Part shown: piece after piece, positions 14,586 through 38,904 of the stretch
How positions within the stretch are numbered: the stretch's first letter is position 1
How the letters are laid out: the number at the start of each line of letters is the position of its first letter
Source: Escherichia coli
Lineage (GTDB): Bacteria; Pseudomonadota; Gammaproteobacteria; Enterobacterales; Enterobacteriaceae
Strand: one strand, 5' to 3'
Assembly: GCF_003018255.1 (NCBI RefSeq)
Contig: NZ_CP027440.1
Length of the DNA stretch: 64,000 nucleotides
Notes under the pieces: model-generated
The model's input: the letters and a program-made list of their open reading frames with translations, nothing else
Told to the model about the DNA's origin: nothing
Databases searched by the model: none
Program-made: the position numbers and the translations under genes

Positions 14586-16127
<1,542 letters not shown>

Positions 16128-16195
16128 CCTTAAAGAAGCGTACTTTGCAGTGCTCACACAGATTGTCTGATGAAAATGAGCAGTAAAACCTCTAC

Positions 16196-16272
<77 letters not shown>

Positions 16273-16314
16273 AATTTGCACGGCAAATTTGAAGAGGTTT
16301 TAACTACATGTTAT

Positions 16315-16390
16315 GGGGCTATAGCTCAGCTGGGAGAGCGCCTGCTTTGCACGCAGGAGGTCTGCGGTTCGATCCCGCATAGCTCCACCA
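16315..16390 (+). tRNA. alaT: tRNA-Ala (anticodon TGC) in the 16S-23S spacer
   Basis: ggggctatagctcagctgggagagcgcctgctttgcacgcaggaggtctgcggttcgatcccgcatagctccacca. Confidence 0.97.
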
Positions 16391-16564
16391 TCTCTGTAGT
16401 GATTAAATAAAAAATACTTCAGAGTGTACCTGCAAAGGTTCACTGCGAAGTTTTGCTCTTTAAAAATCTGGATCAAGCTGAAAATTGAAACACTGAACAA
16501 CGAAAGTTGTTCGTGAGTCTCTCAAATTTTCGCAACTCTGAAGTGAAACATCTTCGGGTTGTGA

Positions 16565-19470
<2,906 letters not shown>

Positions 19471-19567
19471 ACAACGCCGAAGATGTTTTGGCGGATGAGA
19501 GAAGATTTTCAGCCTGATACAGATTAAATCGACATGTCATAACGAGACGTGTTGATAAAACAGAATT

Positions 19568-19687
19568 TGCCTGGCGGCCTTAGCGCGGTGGTCCCACCTG
19601 ACCCCATGCCGAACTCAGAAGTGAAACGCCGTAGCGCCGATGGTAGTGTGGGGTCTCCCCATGCGAGAGTAGGGAACTGCCAGGCAT
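19568..19687 (+). rRNA. rrfA: 5S ribosomal RNA
   Basis: tgcctggcggccttagcgcggtggtcccacctgacccc ... gggaactgccaggcat; 120 nt. Confidence 0.97.
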
Positions 19688-28634: not shown

Positions 28635-28782
28635 GATTCGCCTGAACATGCCCTTTTTTCGTAAGTAAGCAACATAAGCTGTCACGTTTTGTGATGGCTA
28701 TTAGAAATTCCTATGCAACAACTGAAAAAAAATTACAAAAAATGCTTTCTGAACTGAACAAAAAAGAGTAAAGTTAGTCGCG

Positions 28783-28891
28783 TAGGGTACAGAGGTAAGA
28801 TGTTCTATCTTTCAGACCTTTTACTTCACGTAATCGGATTTGGCTGAATATTTTAGCCGCCCCAGTCAGTAATGACTGGGGCGTTTTTTAT
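28783..28891 (+). ncRNA. spf: Spot 42 small regulatory RNA
   Basis: gtagggtacagaggtaagatgttctatctttcagacc ... cccagtcagtaatgactggggcgtttttta; intrinsic terminator; location just 3' of polA. Confidence 0.9.
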
Positions 28892-29860: not shown

Positions 29861-30104
29861 ATAGAGCGAGGACGCTAACAGGAACAATGACTCAGGATGA
29901 GGGTCAGGAGCGCCAGGAGGCGAAGACAGAGGATTGTCAGGAAGATAAACGTCCGGAGACGTAATTAAACGGAAATGGAATCAACACGGATTGTTCCGGC
30001 TAATGGAAAAACAGGGTGTGTTGGCGGCCTGCAAGGATTGTAAGACCCGTTAAGGGTTATGAGTCAGGAAAAAAGGCGACAGAGTAATCTGTCGCCTTTT
30101 TTCT
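29861..30104 (+). ncRNA. csrC: CsrC small RNA (CsrA-sequestering)
   Basis: About 245 nt with many GGA motifs in predicted loops (caggaa, caggatga, caggag, caggagg, caggaag, acggattg, caaggattg, tcaggaa), ending in terminator gcgacagagtaatctgtcgccttttttc; position between engB and yihI. Confidence 0.85.
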
Positions 30105-30171
30105 TTGCTTGCTTTCTGTTAGATTCCGCCGCAAATCTATACTGAATAAAACGGCTAAAAGACGAACCATT

Positions 30172-32654: not shown

Positions 32655-34064
32655 TCACTCCATCCCCAGCTCTTTTAACTTCCGCGTCAGAGTGTTACGC
32701 CCCCAGCCGAGTAGCCGCGCCGCTTCCTGTTTATGCCCTTGCGTATGTCGCAACGCGGTCGTCAGTAACGTCCGCTCCAGCTCAGGCTGCGCTTCGGAAA
32801 GCAGATTTTGATGACCGGAACGCAGCGCTCTGTCTGCCCACTGCGCTAAAAGTGTCGCCCAACTGTCCGGTTGCATTTGAGAAGTACTCTCCGCAACCGT
32901 TGATTCAAACAGTTCACCGGGCAAATCCTGAATCAACACTTCCTGCCCGGCGGCCATCACCGTTAGCCAGCGACAGGTGTTTTCCAGCTGGCGCACGTTC
33001 CCCGGCCACGCCAGGCGCGTCAGCGCGGCTTCGGTTTCCGGATGCAGCAACTTCGCTTCTACGCCCAGTTCGCGCGCGGCAACCTGTAAAAAATGGCGTG
33101 CCAGACGGGGAATATCTTCCCGACGCTCACGCAGTGGCGGCAGATGAACGCGGATGACGTTCAGGCGGTGGAACAGATCCTCACGGAACTTACCTTCCTG
33201 CACCCGCTGTTCAAGATTCTGGTGAGTGGCAGCGATAATCCGCACATCTACTTTCACCGGCGCATAGCCGCCAACGCGATAAAACTGACCATCTGCCAGT
33301 ACGCGCAGCAAACGCGTCTGCACATCCAGCGGCATATCGCCAATTTCATCGAGGAATAATGTGCCACCATCAGCCTGTTCAAAACGCCCCTGACGAATGG
33401 TATTCGCGCCGGTAAATGCGCCTTTCTCGTGACCAAACAGTTCGGATTCGATCAAATCCTTCGGGATAGCCGCCATATTGAGCGCGATAAACGGCGCTTT
33501 GGCTCGCGGACTGTGGCGATGCAGGGCATGAGCGACCAGTTCTTTACCGGTGCCGGACTCGCCGTTAATCAGCACGCTAATAGAAGAACGCGAAAGCCGA
33601 CCGATAATCCGGAACACGTCCTGCATGGCTGGCGCTTCACCGATGATATCGGTCGTTGGGCCGTTAAGCTGAACATTACGCGGCTGCTGCTGTTCCTGGT
33701 AATGACTGATGGCGCGCTCAACCAGCGCCACGGCTTCGTCGATATCAAACGGTTTGGGCAGATAATCAAATGCCCCTTGTTGATAGGCGCTGACGGCAGC
33801 ATCCAGATCGGAATGTGCGGTCATAATGATGACCGGAAGCATCGGATGGCGCTGTTTAATCTGCTTGAGCAGCGCCAGCCCGTCCATTCCCGGCATACGG
33901 ATATCTGAAAGCAGCACATCCGGCGTTTTGCTCGCCAGCGCCTCCAGTACCTCCGCGCCGTTCTCAAATGTTGTACAGGTTAAACCCGCTCCAGCGAGCG
34001 CACGTTCAAGCACCCAACGGATGGAACTATCGTCATCGACTACCCAGACTATCCCTCGTTGCAT
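32655..34064 (-). CDS. glnG: Nitrogen regulation response regulator NtrC (sigma-54 enhancer-binding protein, 469 aa)
   Basis: ORF-track frame 32655..34124 minus; start placed at [18 protein letters not shown]; receiver domain, AAA+ GAFTGA motif, C-terminal HTH. Confidence 0.95.
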
Positions 34065-34075
34065 AAACGTCACCT

Positions 34076-35125
34076 TTATTTCCTGATAGGCAGGTAAACC
34101 GAGAACTCGGTATGACCTGGCCAACTGGTAAATTCAATTTTGCCTGAATGCTGATCAATCAAATTACGGGCGATGGATAAGCCAAGCCCGGTGCCACCTT
34201 CGCGGCCGCTGACCATCGGGTAAAACAGCGTATCCTGCAAATGAGGCGGAATACCTGGCCCGTTATCTTCCACATCAATTCGCGCCGCCAGCCGATAGCG
34301 CTCGCCGTGTAAGGTCAGTTGAAACGCTGTGCGGGTACGCAGAATGATTTCACCACCCTCCGGCCCCAGCGCCTGTAGCGCATTGCGCACAATATTCAGC
34401 AAGACCTGTTCAATTTGATCCGGGTCGTGCGCCAGTTCCGGCAGGCTGGGGTCGTAATCCCGAATCAACCGCACGTTGTCCGGCAGTTCCATCGACACCA
34501 GCGTCACCACGCGTTCAGCTACTTTATGAATACTTTCGGTAACGCGCGTACCGGGCAGTTGCGGTCCCAACAGACGGTCGACCAGATTTCGCAGCCGGTC
34601 CGCCTGTTCGATAATCACTTTGGTATATTCGAGTAGTGACGGGTCAGGTAATGCTTTGCTGAGCAGCTGCGCCGCGCCACGTAAACCGCCAAGCGGATTT
34701 TTAATCTCATGTGCCAGGCCGCGCACTAAATCACGGGCAGCAACCTGCTGGGCGTGCTGTAGCTGTTCCTGACTTAAGCGGCGCTGGTTATCCATCGGTG
34801 CCATCTCCAGCAGGATCATGCCGTCCGGCATACGCTGGGCCGTCACAGAAAGGATATGCGAGCGCCCGTCGATGACCAGCGTCACTTCGTTATCAGTAAA
34901 ACCTTGCCCCGCCTCCAGACTTTCTTGCATCAGCTCGATATTTAATGAGAAGTAGCTCAACAGTTCCGGTAACGGTGTACCAAACAATTTGCGGGAGCTT
35001 TGGGCGAGCAGTTGTTGCGCGGCGGGGTTGGCGTAATGGATCGCCAGGTTGTCATCGATTAACAAAATACTGTTAATCAGCGAGTTGAGGATCTGCCCAG
35101 CATCGGGCTGCGTGCCTGTTGCCAT
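34076..35125 (-). CDS. glnL: Nitrogen regulation sensor histidine kinase NtrB (349 aa)
   Basis: ORF 34076..35125 minus; H-box LAHEIKNPL; HATPase motifs. Confidence 0.95.
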
Positions 35126-35211
35126 AAAGCAGTCTCCTGAACAGGTTGCACCATTTTAGTGCATTATAGCTTTTTACGGATAAAAAGCGCGAAGCATCAG
35201 AGAATTGACGG

Positions 35212-35238
35212 AGAAAAAAGCCCATGCAGAGATGGGCT
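35212..35238 (-). terminator. Terminator after glnA
   Basis: Minus-strand hairpin cccatctctgcatggg followed by a T-run. Confidence 0.55.
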
Positions 35239-35298
35239 GAAAGTTTCCACGGCAACTAAATCCCGGCGTTGTTGCGCCGGGTAGTACAACTTCAACTA

Positions 35299-36708
35299 TT
35301 AGACGCTGTAGTACAGCTCAAACTCTACCGGGTGCGGAGTCATACGCACGCGGTCATCTTCTTCGCGACGCAGAGCGATGTACGCATCGATCGCTTCATC
35401 AGTGAACACGCCACCGGCTTTCAGGAACTCACGGTCCAGATCCAGTTCGTTCAGTGCTTCTTCCAGAGAACCAGCAACCTGTGGGATCTCTTTCGCTTCT
35501 TCCGGCGGCAGGTCATACAGGTTTTTGTCCATCGCTTCGCCCGGATGGATCTTGTTCTTGATACCGTCAAGACCGGCCATCAGCAGGGCAGCAAAGCACA
35601 GGTACGGGTTAGCCGCCGGGTCCGGGAAACGTACTTCGATACGACGTGCTTTCGGAGAAGAAACCACTGGAATACGGATAGACGCAGAACGGTTACGCGC
35701 AGAGTAAGCCAGCATTACCGGTGCTTCGTAGCCCGGGACCAGACGCTTGTAAGAGTTGGTGGTCGGGTTTGCCAGGGCGTTAATCGCTTTCGCGTGTTTG
35801 ATGACGCCGCCAATGTAGTACAGCGCCTGTTCAGACAGACCTGCATATTTGTCGCCCGCGAACAGGTTAACGCCATTTTTAGCCAGCGACATATGGCAGT
35901 GCATACCGGAGCCGTTATCACCGAACATCGGTTTTGGCATAAAGGTCGCGGTTTTACCGAAGCGGTGCGCTACGTTGTGCACAACATATTTGTAGATCTG
36001 AATTTCGTCAGCTTTTTTGGTCATGGTATTGAAGCGGGTAGCCACTTCGTTCTGACCAGCAGTCGCTACTTCGTGGTGATGGGCTTCAACCACCAGACCC
36101 ATCTGTTCCATCACCAGACACATTTCAGAACGAATATCCTGAGCAGAGTCTACCGGCGGAACCGGGAAGTAACCGCCTTTCACTGCCGGACGGTGACCTT
36201 TGTTACCACCTTCGTATTGGGTGGAGGAGTTCCATGCGCCTTCGATATCGTCGATAGCAACGTGAGAACCGGAGATAGATGATCCGAAACGGATGTCATC
36301 GAACAGGAAGAATTCAGGTTCTGGCCCGAACAGTACGGTGTCGGCAATGCCAGTGGAACGCAGGTAATCTTCGGCGCGCTTCGCAATAGAGCGCGGGTCA
36401 CGGTCATAGCCTTGCAGGGTGCCAGGTTCAAGGATGTCGCAACGGATAATCAGGGTAGAATCGGCGAAGAACGGGTCAATCACTGCGGTGGATGCGTCTG
36501 GCATCAGCACCATGTCGGATTCGTTAATGCCTTTCCAGCCGCCAATCGAGGAGCCGTCAAACATTTTGCCTTCTTCGAAGAATTCAGCATTCACCTGATG
36601 AGCAGGGATAGTGACGTGCTGTTCTTTACCTTTGGTATCGGTGAAGCGCAAATCAACAAACTTCACTTCGTGCTCGTTCAGCATCGTCAGTACGTGTTCA
36701 GCGGACAT
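35299..36708 (-). CDS. glnA: Glutamine synthetase (469 aa)
   Basis: ORF 35299..36708 minus; [31 protein letters not shown]; adenylylation-site region; glnALG operon. Confidence 0.97.
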
Positions 36709-36790
36709 ACTTTAACTCTCCTGGATTGGTCATGGTCGTCGTGGTAACGAAATCTGCAATTATTTTGGCCGTGTCGCCGTAAAAAAGATA

Positions 36791-36930
36791 AAGCGAAAAC
36801 TGTGCCAACTTTTAAATTGCCCCTAAAAGGCGTTATCATGCTTAACATCGTGCAAAAGGGCTGCACCATGATGTGAATGTTGCACCAATATAGTGCTTCA
36901 ATGGAAACATTAAGCACCATATTGGTGCAA
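36791..36930 (-). promoter_or_regulatory. glnA control region: sigma-54 promoter glnAp2 (TGGCAC-N5-TCGCT) and upstream NtrC enhancer sites
   Basis: Minus-strand ttggcacagttttcgct at 36791-36808; NtrC-like palindromes tgcaccaatatagtgct (36881-36897) and gcaccatattggtgca (36914-36929). Confidence 0.75.
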
Positions 36931-37080
36931 TGACCTTTGGATAACCCTTTTTATGCTCCGTGAAAGCGATCACAAAGGGACTCTGCAATACTTGTTTGCG
37001 GAGGATGTTTGTGATCCTGTTTTGTAGTGCGATTAATCCGTGTACAATAACGCGCTATTTCTAATGCCTGAGGCAAAGTT

Positions 37081-38904
37081 GTGATCGAAAAATTGCGTAA
37101 TATCGCCATCATCGCGCACGTAGACCATGGTAAAACCACCCTGGTAGACAAGCTGCTCCAACAATCCGGTACGTTCGACTCTCGTGCCGAAACCCAAGAG
37201 CGCGTGATGGACTCCAACGATTTGGAGAAAGAGCGTGGGATTACCATCCTCGCGAAAAACACCGCTATCAAATGGAATGATTACCGTATCAACATCGTTG
37301 ATACCCCGGGGCACGCCGACTTCGGTGGTGAAGTTGAACGTGTAATGTCCATGGTAGACTCAGTGCTGCTGGTGGTTGACGCATTTGACGGCCCGATGCC
37401 GCAAACGCGCTTCGTAACCAAAAAAGCGTTTGCTTACGGCCTGAAGCCGATTGTTGTTATCAACAAAGTTGACCGCCCTGGCGCGCGTCCTGATTGGGTT
37501 GTGGATCAGGTATTCGATCTGTTCGTTAACCTCGACGCGACCGACGAGCAGCTGGACTTCCCGATCGTTTACGCTTCTGCGCTGAACGGTATCGCGGGTC
37601 TGGACCACGAAGATATGGCGGAAGACATGACCCCGCTGTATCAGGCGATTGTTGACCACGTTCCTGCGCCGGACGTTGACCTTGACGGTCCGTTCCAGAT
37701 GCAGATTTCTCAGCTCGATTACAACAGCTATGTTGGCGTTATCGGCATTGGCCGCATCAAGCGCGGTAAAGTGAAGCCGAACCAGCAGGTTACTATCATC
37801 GATAGCGAAGGCAAAACCCGCAACGCGAAAGTCGGTAAAGTGCTGGGCCACCTCGGTCTGGAACGTATCGAAACCGATCTGGCGGAAGCTGGCGATATCG
37901 TGGCGATCACGGGCCTGGGCGAACTGAACATTTCTGACACCGTTTGCGACACGCAAAACGTTGAAGCGCTGCCGGCACTCTCCGTTGATGAGCCGACCGT
38001 TTCTATGTTCTTCTGCGTTAACACCTCGCCGTTCTGCGGTAAAGAAGGTAAGTTCGTAACGTCTCGTCAGATCCTGGATCGTCTGAACAAAGAACTGGTA
38101 CACAACGTTGCGCTGCGCGTAGAAGAAACCGAAGACGCCGATGCGTTCCGCGTTTCTGGTCGTGGCGAACTGCACCTGTCTGTTCTTATCGAAAACATGC
38201 GTCGTGAAGGTTTCGAACTGGCGGTATCCCGTCCGAAAGTAATCTTCCGTGAAATCGACGGTCGTAAACAAGAGCCGTATGAAAACGTGACGCTGGACGT
38301 TGAAGAACAGCATCAGGGTTCTGTGATGCAGGCGCTGGGCGAACGTAAAGGCGACCTGAAAAACATGAATCCAGACGGTAAAGGCCGCGTACGTCTCGAC
38401 TACGTGATCCCAAGCCGTGGTCTGATTGGCTTCCGTTCTGAGTTCATGACCATGACTTCCGGTACTGGTCTGCTGTACTCCACCTTCAGCCACTACGACG
38501 ACGTACGTCCGGGCGAAGTGGGTCAGCGTCAGAACGGTGTACTGATCTCTAACGGTCAGGGTAAAGCGGTCGCGTTCGCGCTGTTCGGTCTGCAGGATCG
38601 CGGTAAGCTGTTCCTCGGTCACGGTGCAGAAGTTTACGAAGGTCAGATTATCGGTATTCATAGCCGCTCTAACGACCTGACTGTAAACTGCCTGACCGGT
38701 AAGAAACTGACCAACATGCGTGCTTCCGGTACTGACGAAGCCGTTGTTCTGGTTCCGCCTATCCGCATGACTCTGGAACAAGCTCTGGAGTTCATCGATG
38801 ATGACGAACTGGTAGAAGTGACTCCGACCTCTATCCGTATTCGTAAACGTCACCTGACGGAAAACGATCGTCGTCGCGCCAACCGCGCACCGAAAGACGA
38901 TTAA
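37081..38904 (+). CDS. typA: Ribosome-associated translational GTPase TypA/BipA (607 aa)
   Basis: ORF 37081..38904, GTG start; G-domain motifs AHVDHGKTT and DTPGH. Confidence 0.95.

What the first reader, a model, noticed from the sequence alone, without database searches (positions are those of the whole stretch)
36780..36935. Intact glnA enhancer/sigma-54 promoter architecture
A sigma-54 -24/-12 element (TGGCAC-N5-TCGCT) sits with tandem NtrC palindromes about 80-140 bp upstream, matching the classical glnAp2 layout.
Basis: partly seen in the sequence, partly recalled or inferred. Interest (0 to 1): 0.2.

Follow-up and report, generated by a model that had tools for sequence, protein, structure and literature searches.

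The report
Textbook E. coli glnAp2 promoter, confirmed
This is the classic nitrogen-regulated promoter and enhancer of the E. coli glutamine synthetase gene, present and working-looking, so it is ordinary; its only twist is a common natural variant in one weak regulator-binding site.

Summary
The window is E. coli chromosome. The finding is the glnA-typA intergenic region, read on the minus strand.

- **Sigma-54 element:** TTGGCACAGTTTTCGCT lies at 36792-36808 (-). It puts the start site at 36781, 73 nt before the glnA ATG.
- **NtrC dyads:** the two strong sites are centred at exactly -140 and -108. Weaker sites lie near -89, -66 and -45.
- **Motif scores:** the sigma-54 site is the second-best PWM hit of 127,968 positions. 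The NtrC dyads and the glnL operator are the only three near-consensus NtrC sites in 64 kb.
- **Chance:** a single motif hit alone is near chance level. The combination never appeared in 300 shuffles.
- **Conservation:** the layout is kept in 32 Enterobacterales genomes.
- **Identity to K-12:** the region differs from K-12 glnAp2 at 6 of 372 intergenic bases. NtrB and NtrC proteins are identical to K-12.

The only nuance concerns low-affinity "governor" site IV. It carries a derived 3-base change (GGTGCGC to GTTAAGC), shared by about 40% of complete E. coli genomes including O157:H7.

Verdict: already known, low interest.

The parts
36792..36808 (-). Sigma-54 (-24/-12) promoter element of glnAp2, TTGGCACAGTTTTCGCT. 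GG is at 36806-36805 (-25/-24) and GC at 36794-36793 (-13/-12).
   Evidence: Consensus match. It scores 15.8 bits on a PWM built from 134 ChIP-seq sigma-54 sites with glnA left out. That is rank 2 of 127,968 positions and the 78th percentile of real sites. It differs from K-12 glnAp2 (TTGGCACAGATTTCGCT, PMC4591121 OS37) at one spacer base. It is conserved upstream of glnA in 78 of 79 gammaproteobacterial loci.
36781..36781 (-). Inferred glnAp2 transcription start, giving a 73-nt 5' UTR (36709-36781).
   Evidence: Placed 19 bp downstream of the motif centre, following the convention of PMC4591121, which lists a distance of 73 for glnA. This placement puts the NtrC dyads at exactly -140 and -108, as published. 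Inferred, not measured.
36913..36929 (-). NtrC enhancer site I, TGCACCAATATGGTGCT, centred at -140.
   Evidence: 1 of 14 mismatches to TGCACCAnnnTGGTGCA. The position matches the literature. The only difference from K-12 is the central spacer base. It is conserved at -139 to -143 in 32 Enterobacterales loci.
36881..36897 (-). NtrC enhancer site II, AGCACTATATTGGTGCA, centred at -108, 32 bp from site I.
   Evidence: 2 of 14 mismatches. Identical to K-12. Conserved at -107 to -110. It overlaps the published glnAp1 start region, 115 bp upstream of glnAp2.
36862..36878 (-). Low-affinity NtrC site III, ATTCACATCATGGTGCA, centred at about -89.
   Evidence: 5 of 14 mismatches with an intact TGGTGCA half-site. 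The literature position is -89. One spacer base differs from K-12. The GGTGCA half is conserved in Enterobacteriaceae.
36839..36854 (-). Low-affinity NtrC 'governor' site IV, centred at about -66. The window reads TGCACGATGTTAAGCA; K-12 reads TGCACGATGGTGCGCA.
   Evidence: Literature position -66. Three substitutions at 36842, 36843 and 36845 relative to K-12. The K-12 form is the one shared with Citrobacter, Kluyvera, Enterobacter and Cedecea, so the window form is derived. The window form is in 2196 complete E. coli genomes; 3202 fall in the identity band of the K-12 form. The exact site boundaries are my inference.
36818..36834 (-). Low-affinity NtrC site V region, centred at about -45.
   Evidence: Literature position -45. 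Only a 6 of 14 mismatch match. Identical to K-12.
36959..36974 (-). CRP site TGTGATCGCTTTCACG upstream of the sigma-70 promoter glnAp1, about 70 bp upstream of the published glnAp1 start near 36896.
Evidence: 1 mismatch to TGTGA-N6-TCACA. The literature states that a classical CRP site lies upstream of glnAp1. It is invariant in 17 enteric orthologs.
35299..36708 (-). glnA coding sequence, the gene driven by the promoter.
   Evidence: 469-aa ORF. Annotated as glnA in matching genomes. One amino-acid difference from K-12, S276A.
32655..35125 (-). glnL (34076-35125, NtrB) and glnG (32655-34064, NtrC), the sensor kinase and the activator that binds the enhancer.
   Evidence: Both proteins are identical to K-12. 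Gene order matches K-12.
35147..35163 (-). NtrC operator at glnLp, TGCACTAAAATGGTGCA, between glnA and glnL.
   Evidence: 1 of 14 mismatches; one of only three near-consensus sites in the window. An NtrC ChIP-seq peak at glnLG and direct binding are cited in PMC4066584.

Best explanation
This is glnAp2, the sigma-54-dependent, NtrC-activated promoter of the E. coli glnALG operon, together with its upstream enhancer. It lies on the minus strand.

How it works, from the published K-12 studies:
1. RNA polymerase carrying sigma-54 binds the -24/-12 element (36792-36808) as a closed complex that cannot open on its own.
2. Under nitrogen limitation NtrB phosphorylates NtrC.
3. NtrC dimers bind the two strong dyads centred at -140 and -108 and assemble into an ATPase oligomer.
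4. The DNA in between loops, so the oligomer contacts the polymerase and drives open-complex formation. Transcription starts near 36781, 73 nt before the glnA ATG.
5. The same two dyads overlap the weak sigma-70/CRP promoter glnAp1, so NtrC also represses it.
6. Weaker NtrC sites at about -89, -66 and -45 fill only at high NtrC levels. They cap output, acting as a 'governor'.

What is shown here: the sequence features, their positions, their statistical non-randomness, their conservation, and their near-identity to the studied K-12 promoter.

What is inferred: the mechanism itself, which is carried over from K-12 experiments.

In this strain site IV carries a derived, common E. coli allele. 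It probably weakens that site.
For: Identity and context:
- The window is E. coli; 5425 of 5426 complete genomes match, with glnA and typA annotated on either side.
- Only 6 substitutions separate it from K-12 across the intergenic region. None falls in the GG/GC dinucleotides or in the half-sites of sites I-III.

Motif strength:
- The sigma-54 PWM built from 134 ChIP-seq sites scores 15.8 bits. That is rank 2 of 127,968 positions; rank 1 is another published sigma-54 site in fdoI.
- The only three NtrC matches with at most 2 mismatches in 64 kb are site I, site II and the glnL operator.
- The composite occurred 0 times in 300 shuffles.

Agreement with the literature:
- Geometry of -140, -108, -89, -66, -45 and a 73-nt leader equals the published values.
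- The strongest NtrC ChIP-seq peak in E. coli is at glnALG.

Conservation:
- A sigma-54 motif of at least 9.3 bits lies upstream of glnA in 78 of 79 loci.
- NtrC dyads lie at about -140 and -108 in 32 Enterobacterales loci.

Regulators: NtrB and NtrC proteins are identical to K-12.
Against: - Nothing contradicts the reading.
- No expression or binding data exist for this particular strain.
- The start site is inferred from motif geometry, not measured.
- rpoN is not in the window.
- A sigma-54 PWM hit of this strength is expected about once per 64 kb by chance. The sigma-54 motif alone would therefore prove nothing.
- Site IV differs from the studied K-12 sequence at three bases. The quantitative behaviour at high NtrC may therefore differ.
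Confidence: 0.97

Rival explanations
1. The architecture is present but not functionally equivalent to K-12. The derived site IV allele (GTTAAGC for GGTGCGC) weakens the governor, so this lineage reaches a higher glnAp2 ceiling at high NtrC-P. The sigma-54 spacer change (A to T) may also contribute.
For: - The three clustered substitutions fall in a block otherwise conserved across Enterobacteriaceae.
- They remove the GGTGC pentamer and lower the match of the promoter-proximal half-site.
- Published work, summarised in PMC5159524, reports that mutating sites III and/or IV raises output only at high NtrC.
- The allele is a stable dimorphism, 2196 against 3202 genomes.
Against: - By consensus mismatch count, site IV is weak in both alleles: 6 against 7 of 14.
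- The sigma-54 PWM score changes by only 0.1 bit. The T spacer variant also occurs in Serratia, Rahnella and a Vibrio.
- Swapping other parts of the O157-type glnALG locus into K-12 gave negligible changes in GlnA and NtrC (PMC9731577). That experiment did not swap the promoter.
- There is no direct test.
Confidence: 0.3
2. The palindromes are conserved mainly because they form the secondary structure of the ES222 small RNA, transcribed on the plus strand towards typA. On this view they are not conserved as protein-binding sites.
For: - Rfam ES222 matches 36892-36999 (+) at 133 bits. It also matches in E. albertii, Citrobacter, Pseudocitrobacter and Enterobacter.
- Helix 1 of the model pairs the half-sites of sites II and I. 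Three of its pairs show changes on both sides.
Against: - On 17 orthologs the Rfam structure is barely better than shuffled columns: 75.6% paired against 74.2%. Pairs with a change on both sides number 4 against a shuffled mean of 4.4. Helix 3 is only 63% paired.
- The invariant columns are exactly the NtrC half-sites and the CRP site.
- NtrC dyads persist at similar distances in Vibrio, Aeromonas and Alteromonas, where there is no ES222.
- NtrC binding here is experimentally established.
Confidence: 0.02
3. Chance co-occurrence of a sigma-54-like motif and palindromes, with no regulatory role.
For: Single-motif scans are at chance level.
Against: - The composite never occurred in 300 shuffles.
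- Positions are conserved across 32 Enterobacterales loci.
- The region is near-identical to an experimentally defined promoter.
Confidence: 0.01

Closest known systems
E. coli K-12 glnAp2 promoter and enhancer (Reitzer and Magasanik; Ninfa; Atkinson et al. 2002 'governor')
   Same: - Same locus and same strand relative to glnA.
- Same sigma-54 core except one spacer base.
- Same NtrC sites I and II at -140 and -108.
- Same 73-nt leader and the same CRP site upstream of glnAp1.
- 366 of 372 intergenic bases identical.
   Different: Six substitutions:
- the central spacer base of site I;
- a spacer base of site III;
- three bases in low-affinity site IV;
- one base in the sigma-54 spacer.

The allele set goes with the O157-type short glnA 3' UTR.
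Other NtrC-dependent sigma-54 promoters of E. coli (glnK, glnHp2, nac, astC)
   Same: A sigma-54 -24/-12 element with upstream NtrC dyads (motifs listed).
   Different: Per the glnAp2 literature read here, glnAp2 combines two very strong dyads, three low-affinity sites and an overlapping sigma-70/CRP promoter. Its -12 region reads TCGCT rather than TTGCW. That C is rare among the 135 ChIP sites yet conserved in Enterobacterales glnAp2.
Rfam RF02755, ES222 sRNA
   Same: It overlaps sites I and II and the CRP site on the opposite strand, scoring 133 bits.
   Different: Its proposed structure has little covariation support here.

Membership tests
Sigma-54 (RpoN)-dependent promoter | GG and GC dinucleotides exactly 10 bp apart within a TGGCAC-N5-TTGCW-like element | tested here: met
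   TGGCACAGTTTTCGCT at 36792-36807 (-), with 1 mismatch to the consensus.
Sigma-54 (RpoN)-dependent promoter | PWM similarity to experimentally bound sigma-54 sites | tested here: met
   15.8 bits on a leave-glnA-out PWM from 134 ChIP-seq sites. This is the 78th percentile of real sites and rank 2 of 127,968 window positions. About 1.1 hits of at least 15 bits are expected by chance per window.
Sigma-54 (RpoN)-dependent promoter | Correct orientation and a short distance to a downstream gene | tested here: met
   Same strand as glnA. The predicted start is 73 nt before the ATG, equal to the published value.
Sigma-54 (RpoN)-dependent promoter | Transcription depends on rpoN | not testable with these tools
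   This needs expression data from an rpoN mutant of this strain. It is established for the K-12 ortholog in the literature.
glnAp2 NtrC enhancer architecture | Two high-affinity 17-bp NtrC dyads centred at -140 and -108 | tested here: met
   36913-36929 has 1 of 14 mismatches and 36881-36897 has 2 of 14. Centres are -140 and -108, 32 bp apart. With the glnL operator, these are the only such matches in 64 kb.
glnAp2 NtrC enhancer architecture | Low-affinity NtrC sites at about -89, -66 and -45 | tested here: inconclusive
   Sites III and V keep the K-12 half-sites. Site IV has three substitutions that remove GGTGC. Binding strength cannot be judged from sequence alone.
glnAp2 NtrC enhancer architecture | Orthology with the characterised K-12 promoter | tested here: met
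   6 differences in the 372-bp intergenic region, with identical flanking genes.
glnAp2 NtrC enhancer architecture | Cognate NtrB and NtrC are encoded and intact | tested here: met
   The glnL and glnG products are identical to K-12.
glnAp2 NtrC enhancer architecture | Evolutionary conservation of the layout | tested here: met
   32 Enterobacterales loci have dyads at -139 to -143 and -107 to -110. A sigma-54 motif is present in 78 of 79 loci.
glnAp2 NtrC enhancer architecture | NtrC-P-dependent activation through DNA looping | not testable with these tools
   This requires in vitro transcription or in vivo reporters.
glnAp1 (sigma-70, CRP-activated, NtrC-repressed) | A CRP site upstream, and NtrC sites overlapping the promoter | tested here: met
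   TGTGATCGCTTTCACG at 36959-36974 lies about 70 bp upstream of the published glnAp1 start, which is 115 bp upstream of glnAp2. It is invariant in orthologs.
glnAp1 (sigma-70, CRP-activated, NtrC-repressed) | Recognisable -35 and -10 hexamers | tested here: not met
   The consensus scan found no minus-strand sigma-70 match in this region. This fits a weak, activator-dependent promoter but was not verified.
Rfam ES222 sRNA | Covariance-model score above the gathering threshold | tested here: met
   133 bits against a threshold of 62.
Rfam ES222 sRNA | Structure supported by compensatory changes | tested here: inconclusive
   75.6% of cells paired against 74.2% in shuffles. Four pairs have changes on both sides against a shuffled mean of 4.4.

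The most novel reading that the evidence does not exclude
The textbook glnAp2 'governor' is naturally dimorphic in E. coli. About 40% of complete genomes, including O157:H7 and this window, carry a derived three-base replacement in low-affinity NtrC site IV. That block is otherwise conserved across Enterobacteriaceae. The allele would weaken the governor and raise the ceiling of glutamine synthetase and NtrBC expression under severe nitrogen starvation. It would be a lineage-specific cis-regulatory difference in a model promoter, linked to the O157-type short GlnZ 3' UTR.
Probability: 0.3. Interest if true: 0.3.

Novelty: already known. Interest (0 to 1): 0.08.

Why it matters
It matters little as a discovery. 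glnAp2 is the founding example of bacterial enhancer-dependent transcription, and finding it upstream of glnA in E. coli is expected. The only item that could merit a bench test is the common site IV allele. It offers a natural experiment on the published 'governor' model of low-affinity activator sites.

Tried and rejected
- **Simple consensus scans.** Scans for sigma-54 and for the NtrC dyad were individually at chance level. I replaced them with a data-derived PWM, a 14-position mismatch scan and a composite shuffle test.
- **NtrC PWM.** I tried to build one from the gSELEX paper's supplement. The NtrC site sequences could not be retrieved from the text held, so NtrC was scored by consensus mismatches only.
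- **Literature search for site IV sequences.** Searching for the two site IV sequence strings found nothing.
- **Literature search for ES222.** This returned only unrelated papers.
- **ES222 structure as the reason for the palindromes.** Tested and rejected as the main explanation.
- **glnA leader structure.** I looked for a conserved RNA structure in the 73-nt leader and found none; the consensus energy was -0.28 kcal/mol.
- **Weak microRNA-family hits** reflect the palindromes and fall far below their thresholds.

Full report
**Where the window comes from.** A 601-base stretch around the finding matches 5425 of 5426 complete E. coli genomes. Each has one copy, lying between genes annotated glnA and typA. 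The ORF map shows glnA at 35299-36708 (-), glnL at 34076-35125 (-), glnG at 32655-34064 (-) and typA/bipA at 37081-38904 (+). This is the K-12 gene order.

**Checking the observation.**
- On the minus strand the sequence TGGCAC-AGTTT-TCGCT is at 36792-36807.
- Two 17-bp dyads lie upstream: TGCACCAATATGGTGCT at 36913-36929 and AGCACTATATTGGTGCA at 36881-36897.
- I placed the start site 19 bp downstream of the sigma-54 motif centre, the convention of Bonocora et al. (PMC4591121). This gives +1 = 36781 and a 73-nt leader, the same distance that paper lists for glnA.
- With that origin the dyads are centred at exactly -140 and -108. These are the published positions of NtrC enhancer sites I and II (PMC5159524; PMC1865078).
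- A weaker dyad with an intact TGGTGCA half-site lies at about -89. Poor matches lie near -66 and -45. These are the published positions of low-affinity sites III to V.

- I built a sigma-54 PWM from the 134 ChIP-seq-defined E. coli binding sites in Tables 1 and 2 of PMC4591121, leaving glnA out.
- The window's site scores 15.8 bits, at the 78th percentile of real sites. It is the second-best of 127,968 positions in the window.
- The best position, 58063-58079 (-), is itself a published intragenic sigma-54 site in fdoI.
- However, dinucleotide-preserving shuffles give about 1.1 hits of at least 15 bits per 64 kb. The simple consensus scans were also at chance level. The sigma-54 motif alone is therefore not evidence.
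- The NtrC sites are more telling. Against the published consensus TGCACCAnnnTGGTGCA (PMC8743547), only three positions in 64 kb have at most 2 of 14 mismatches. They are site I, site II and 35147-35163, the NtrC operator of glnLp between glnA and glnL.
- Shuffles give 0.28 such sites on average, and three or more appeared in 1 of 300 shuffles.
- A deliberately relaxed composite never occurred in 300 shuffles. It required sigma-54 of at least 13 bits plus two or more NtrC sites with at most 3 mismatches within 250 bp.

**Orthology with the characterised promoter.** Aligned with K-12 MG1655, the region differs at six positions:
- the central spacer base of site I (36921);
- a spacer base of site III (36869);
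- three bases in site IV (36842, 36843, 36845);
- one base in the sigma-54 spacer (36799).

None touches the GG or GC dinucleotides or the half-sites of sites I to III. The spacer change costs 0.1 bit on the PWM. The NtrB and NtrC proteins encoded downstream are identical to K-12, and GlnA differs by S276A. NtrC ChIP-seq in E. coli gives its strongest peak at glnALG and a second peak at glnLG (PMC4066584).

**Conservation.** I fetched 80 glnA loci from representative genomes and scanned 500 bp upstream of each.
- A sigma-54 motif of at least 9.3 bits lies upstream of glnA in 78 of the 79 loci analysed.
- 32 Enterobacterales loci have NtrC dyads at -139 to -143 and -107 to -110.
- Vibrio species have them near -147, -118 and -97, and Aeromonas near -130 and -109.
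- The unusual C in the -12 region (TCGCT rather than TTGCW) is rare among the ChIP sites. It is nevertheless retained through Enterobacterales glnAp2.
- The CRP site TGTGATCGCTTTCACG (36959-36974) is invariant among 17 enteric orthologs. It lies about 70 bp upstream of the published glnAp1 start, which is 115 bp upstream of glnAp2.

**Mechanism.** The sequence evidence places this region as glnAp2. The mechanism is taken from the K-12 literature.
1. Sigma-54 holoenzyme forms a closed complex at -24/-12.
2. NtrC phosphorylated by NtrB binds sites I and II and oligomerises.
3. Through a DNA loop it uses ATP hydrolysis to open the promoter.
4. The same sites overlap glnAp1 and repress it.
5. The low-affinity sites limit output at high NtrC-P, acting as the 'governor'.

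Shown here: the parts, the geometry, non-randomness, conservation, and identity of the regulators. Inferred: binding and activation in this strain.

**The one nuance: site IV.**
- K-12 reads TGCACGATGGTGCGCA around -66; the window reads TGCACGATGTTAAGCA.
- In other Enterobacteriaceae this block is conserved in the K-12-like form: ACTATGGTGCGCATG in Kluyvera, Enterobacter, Cedecea and Superficieibacter, and ACGATAGTGCGCATG in Citrobacter. The window allele is therefore derived.
- E. albertii has yet another form.
- Among complete E. coli genomes, 2196 carry exactly the window allele, including O157:H7. Another 3202 are in the identity band of the K-12 form.
- 1331 genomes also share the T in the sigma-54 spacer.
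- The change removes a GGTGC pentamer and lowers the proximal half-site match. By consensus mismatch count, though, the site is weak in both alleles, 6 against 7 of 14.
- Published experiments, as summarised in PMC5159524, report that mutating sites III and/or IV raises output only at high NtrC. A modestly higher ceiling is a reasonable but untested prediction.
- The window also has the O157-type short glnA 3' UTR. It is about 112 nt shorter than K-12, matching the 85-nt against 197-nt types described in PMC9731577.

**Opposite strand.** Rfam's ES222 sRNA model matches 36892-36999 (+) at 133 bits. It also matches several Enterobacteriaceae. It overlaps site I, part of site II and the CRP site. 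On 17 orthologs the Rfam structure is barely better than column shuffles, 75.6% against 74.2% paired, and pairs with changes on both sides are no more frequent than in shuffles. The invariant columns are the protein-binding half-sites. I conclude that the palindromes are explained by NtrC and CRP binding. Whether a plus-strand transcript also exists cannot be judged here.

**Verdict.** The feature is the already known glnAp2 promoter and enhancer. Interest is low. The only mildly new point is the widespread derived allele at governor site IV.

Noticed in passing
window 36892-36999 (+): Rfam ES222 sRNA hit (133 bits) on the strand opposite to glnAp2. It overlaps NtrC sites I and II and the CRP site. 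A terminator-like hairpin lies at its 3' end (36981-37003). The model's structure has little covariation support in 17 enteric orthologs, and its helix 1 arms are the NtrC half-sites.
   Followed up: partly
window 35238-35287 (glnA-glnL intergenic, minus strand): The glnA 3' UTR (GlnZ sRNA region) is about 112 nt shorter than in K-12. This matches the 'O157-type' 85-nt GlnZ form described in PMC9731577.
   Followed up: partly
window 35147-35163: TGCACTAAAATGGTGCA is a near-perfect NtrC dyad between glnA and glnL. It is the glnLp operator and one of only three near-consensus NtrC sites in the window.
   Followed up: partly
window 58063-58079 (-): CTGGCGCGAATTCTGCA is the best sigma-54 PWM hit in the window (17.7 bits). 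It equals the published intragenic sigma-54 ChIP-seq site IS47 inside fdoI.
   Followed up: partly
window about 36728-36743 (-), glnA 5' UTR: The box TCGTTACCACGACGAC just upstream of the Shine-Dalgarno sequence is conserved from Escherichia to Serratia, Yersinia and Pectobacterium. The rest of the leader varies. No conserved RNA structure was found, and I know of no function for it.
   Followed up: partly
window 36842-36847 (+): The derived site IV allele creates TTAACA, a 5-of-6 match to a sigma-70 -35 hexamer, on the typA-facing strand. CATGAT follows 19 bp downstream. The spacing is poor and it may mean nothing.
   Followed up: no
L040 (Pantoea sp. Nvir, stinkbug symbiont), upstream of glnA: This is the only one of 79 glnA loci with no recognisable sigma-54 motif (best 1.3 bits) or NtrC dyad upstream. 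It suggests loss of nitrogen-regulated glnA transcription in a reduced symbiont genome.
   Followed up: no
window 14586-19685; 28772-28890; 29861-30114; 61554-61612: Rfam also finds an rRNA operon with two tRNAs, Spot 42, CsrC, and a SECIS element on the minus strand. Together with the K-12 gene order and coordinates seen around glnA, I judge the window to be the K-12 4.02-4.09 Mb neighbourhood.
   Followed up: no
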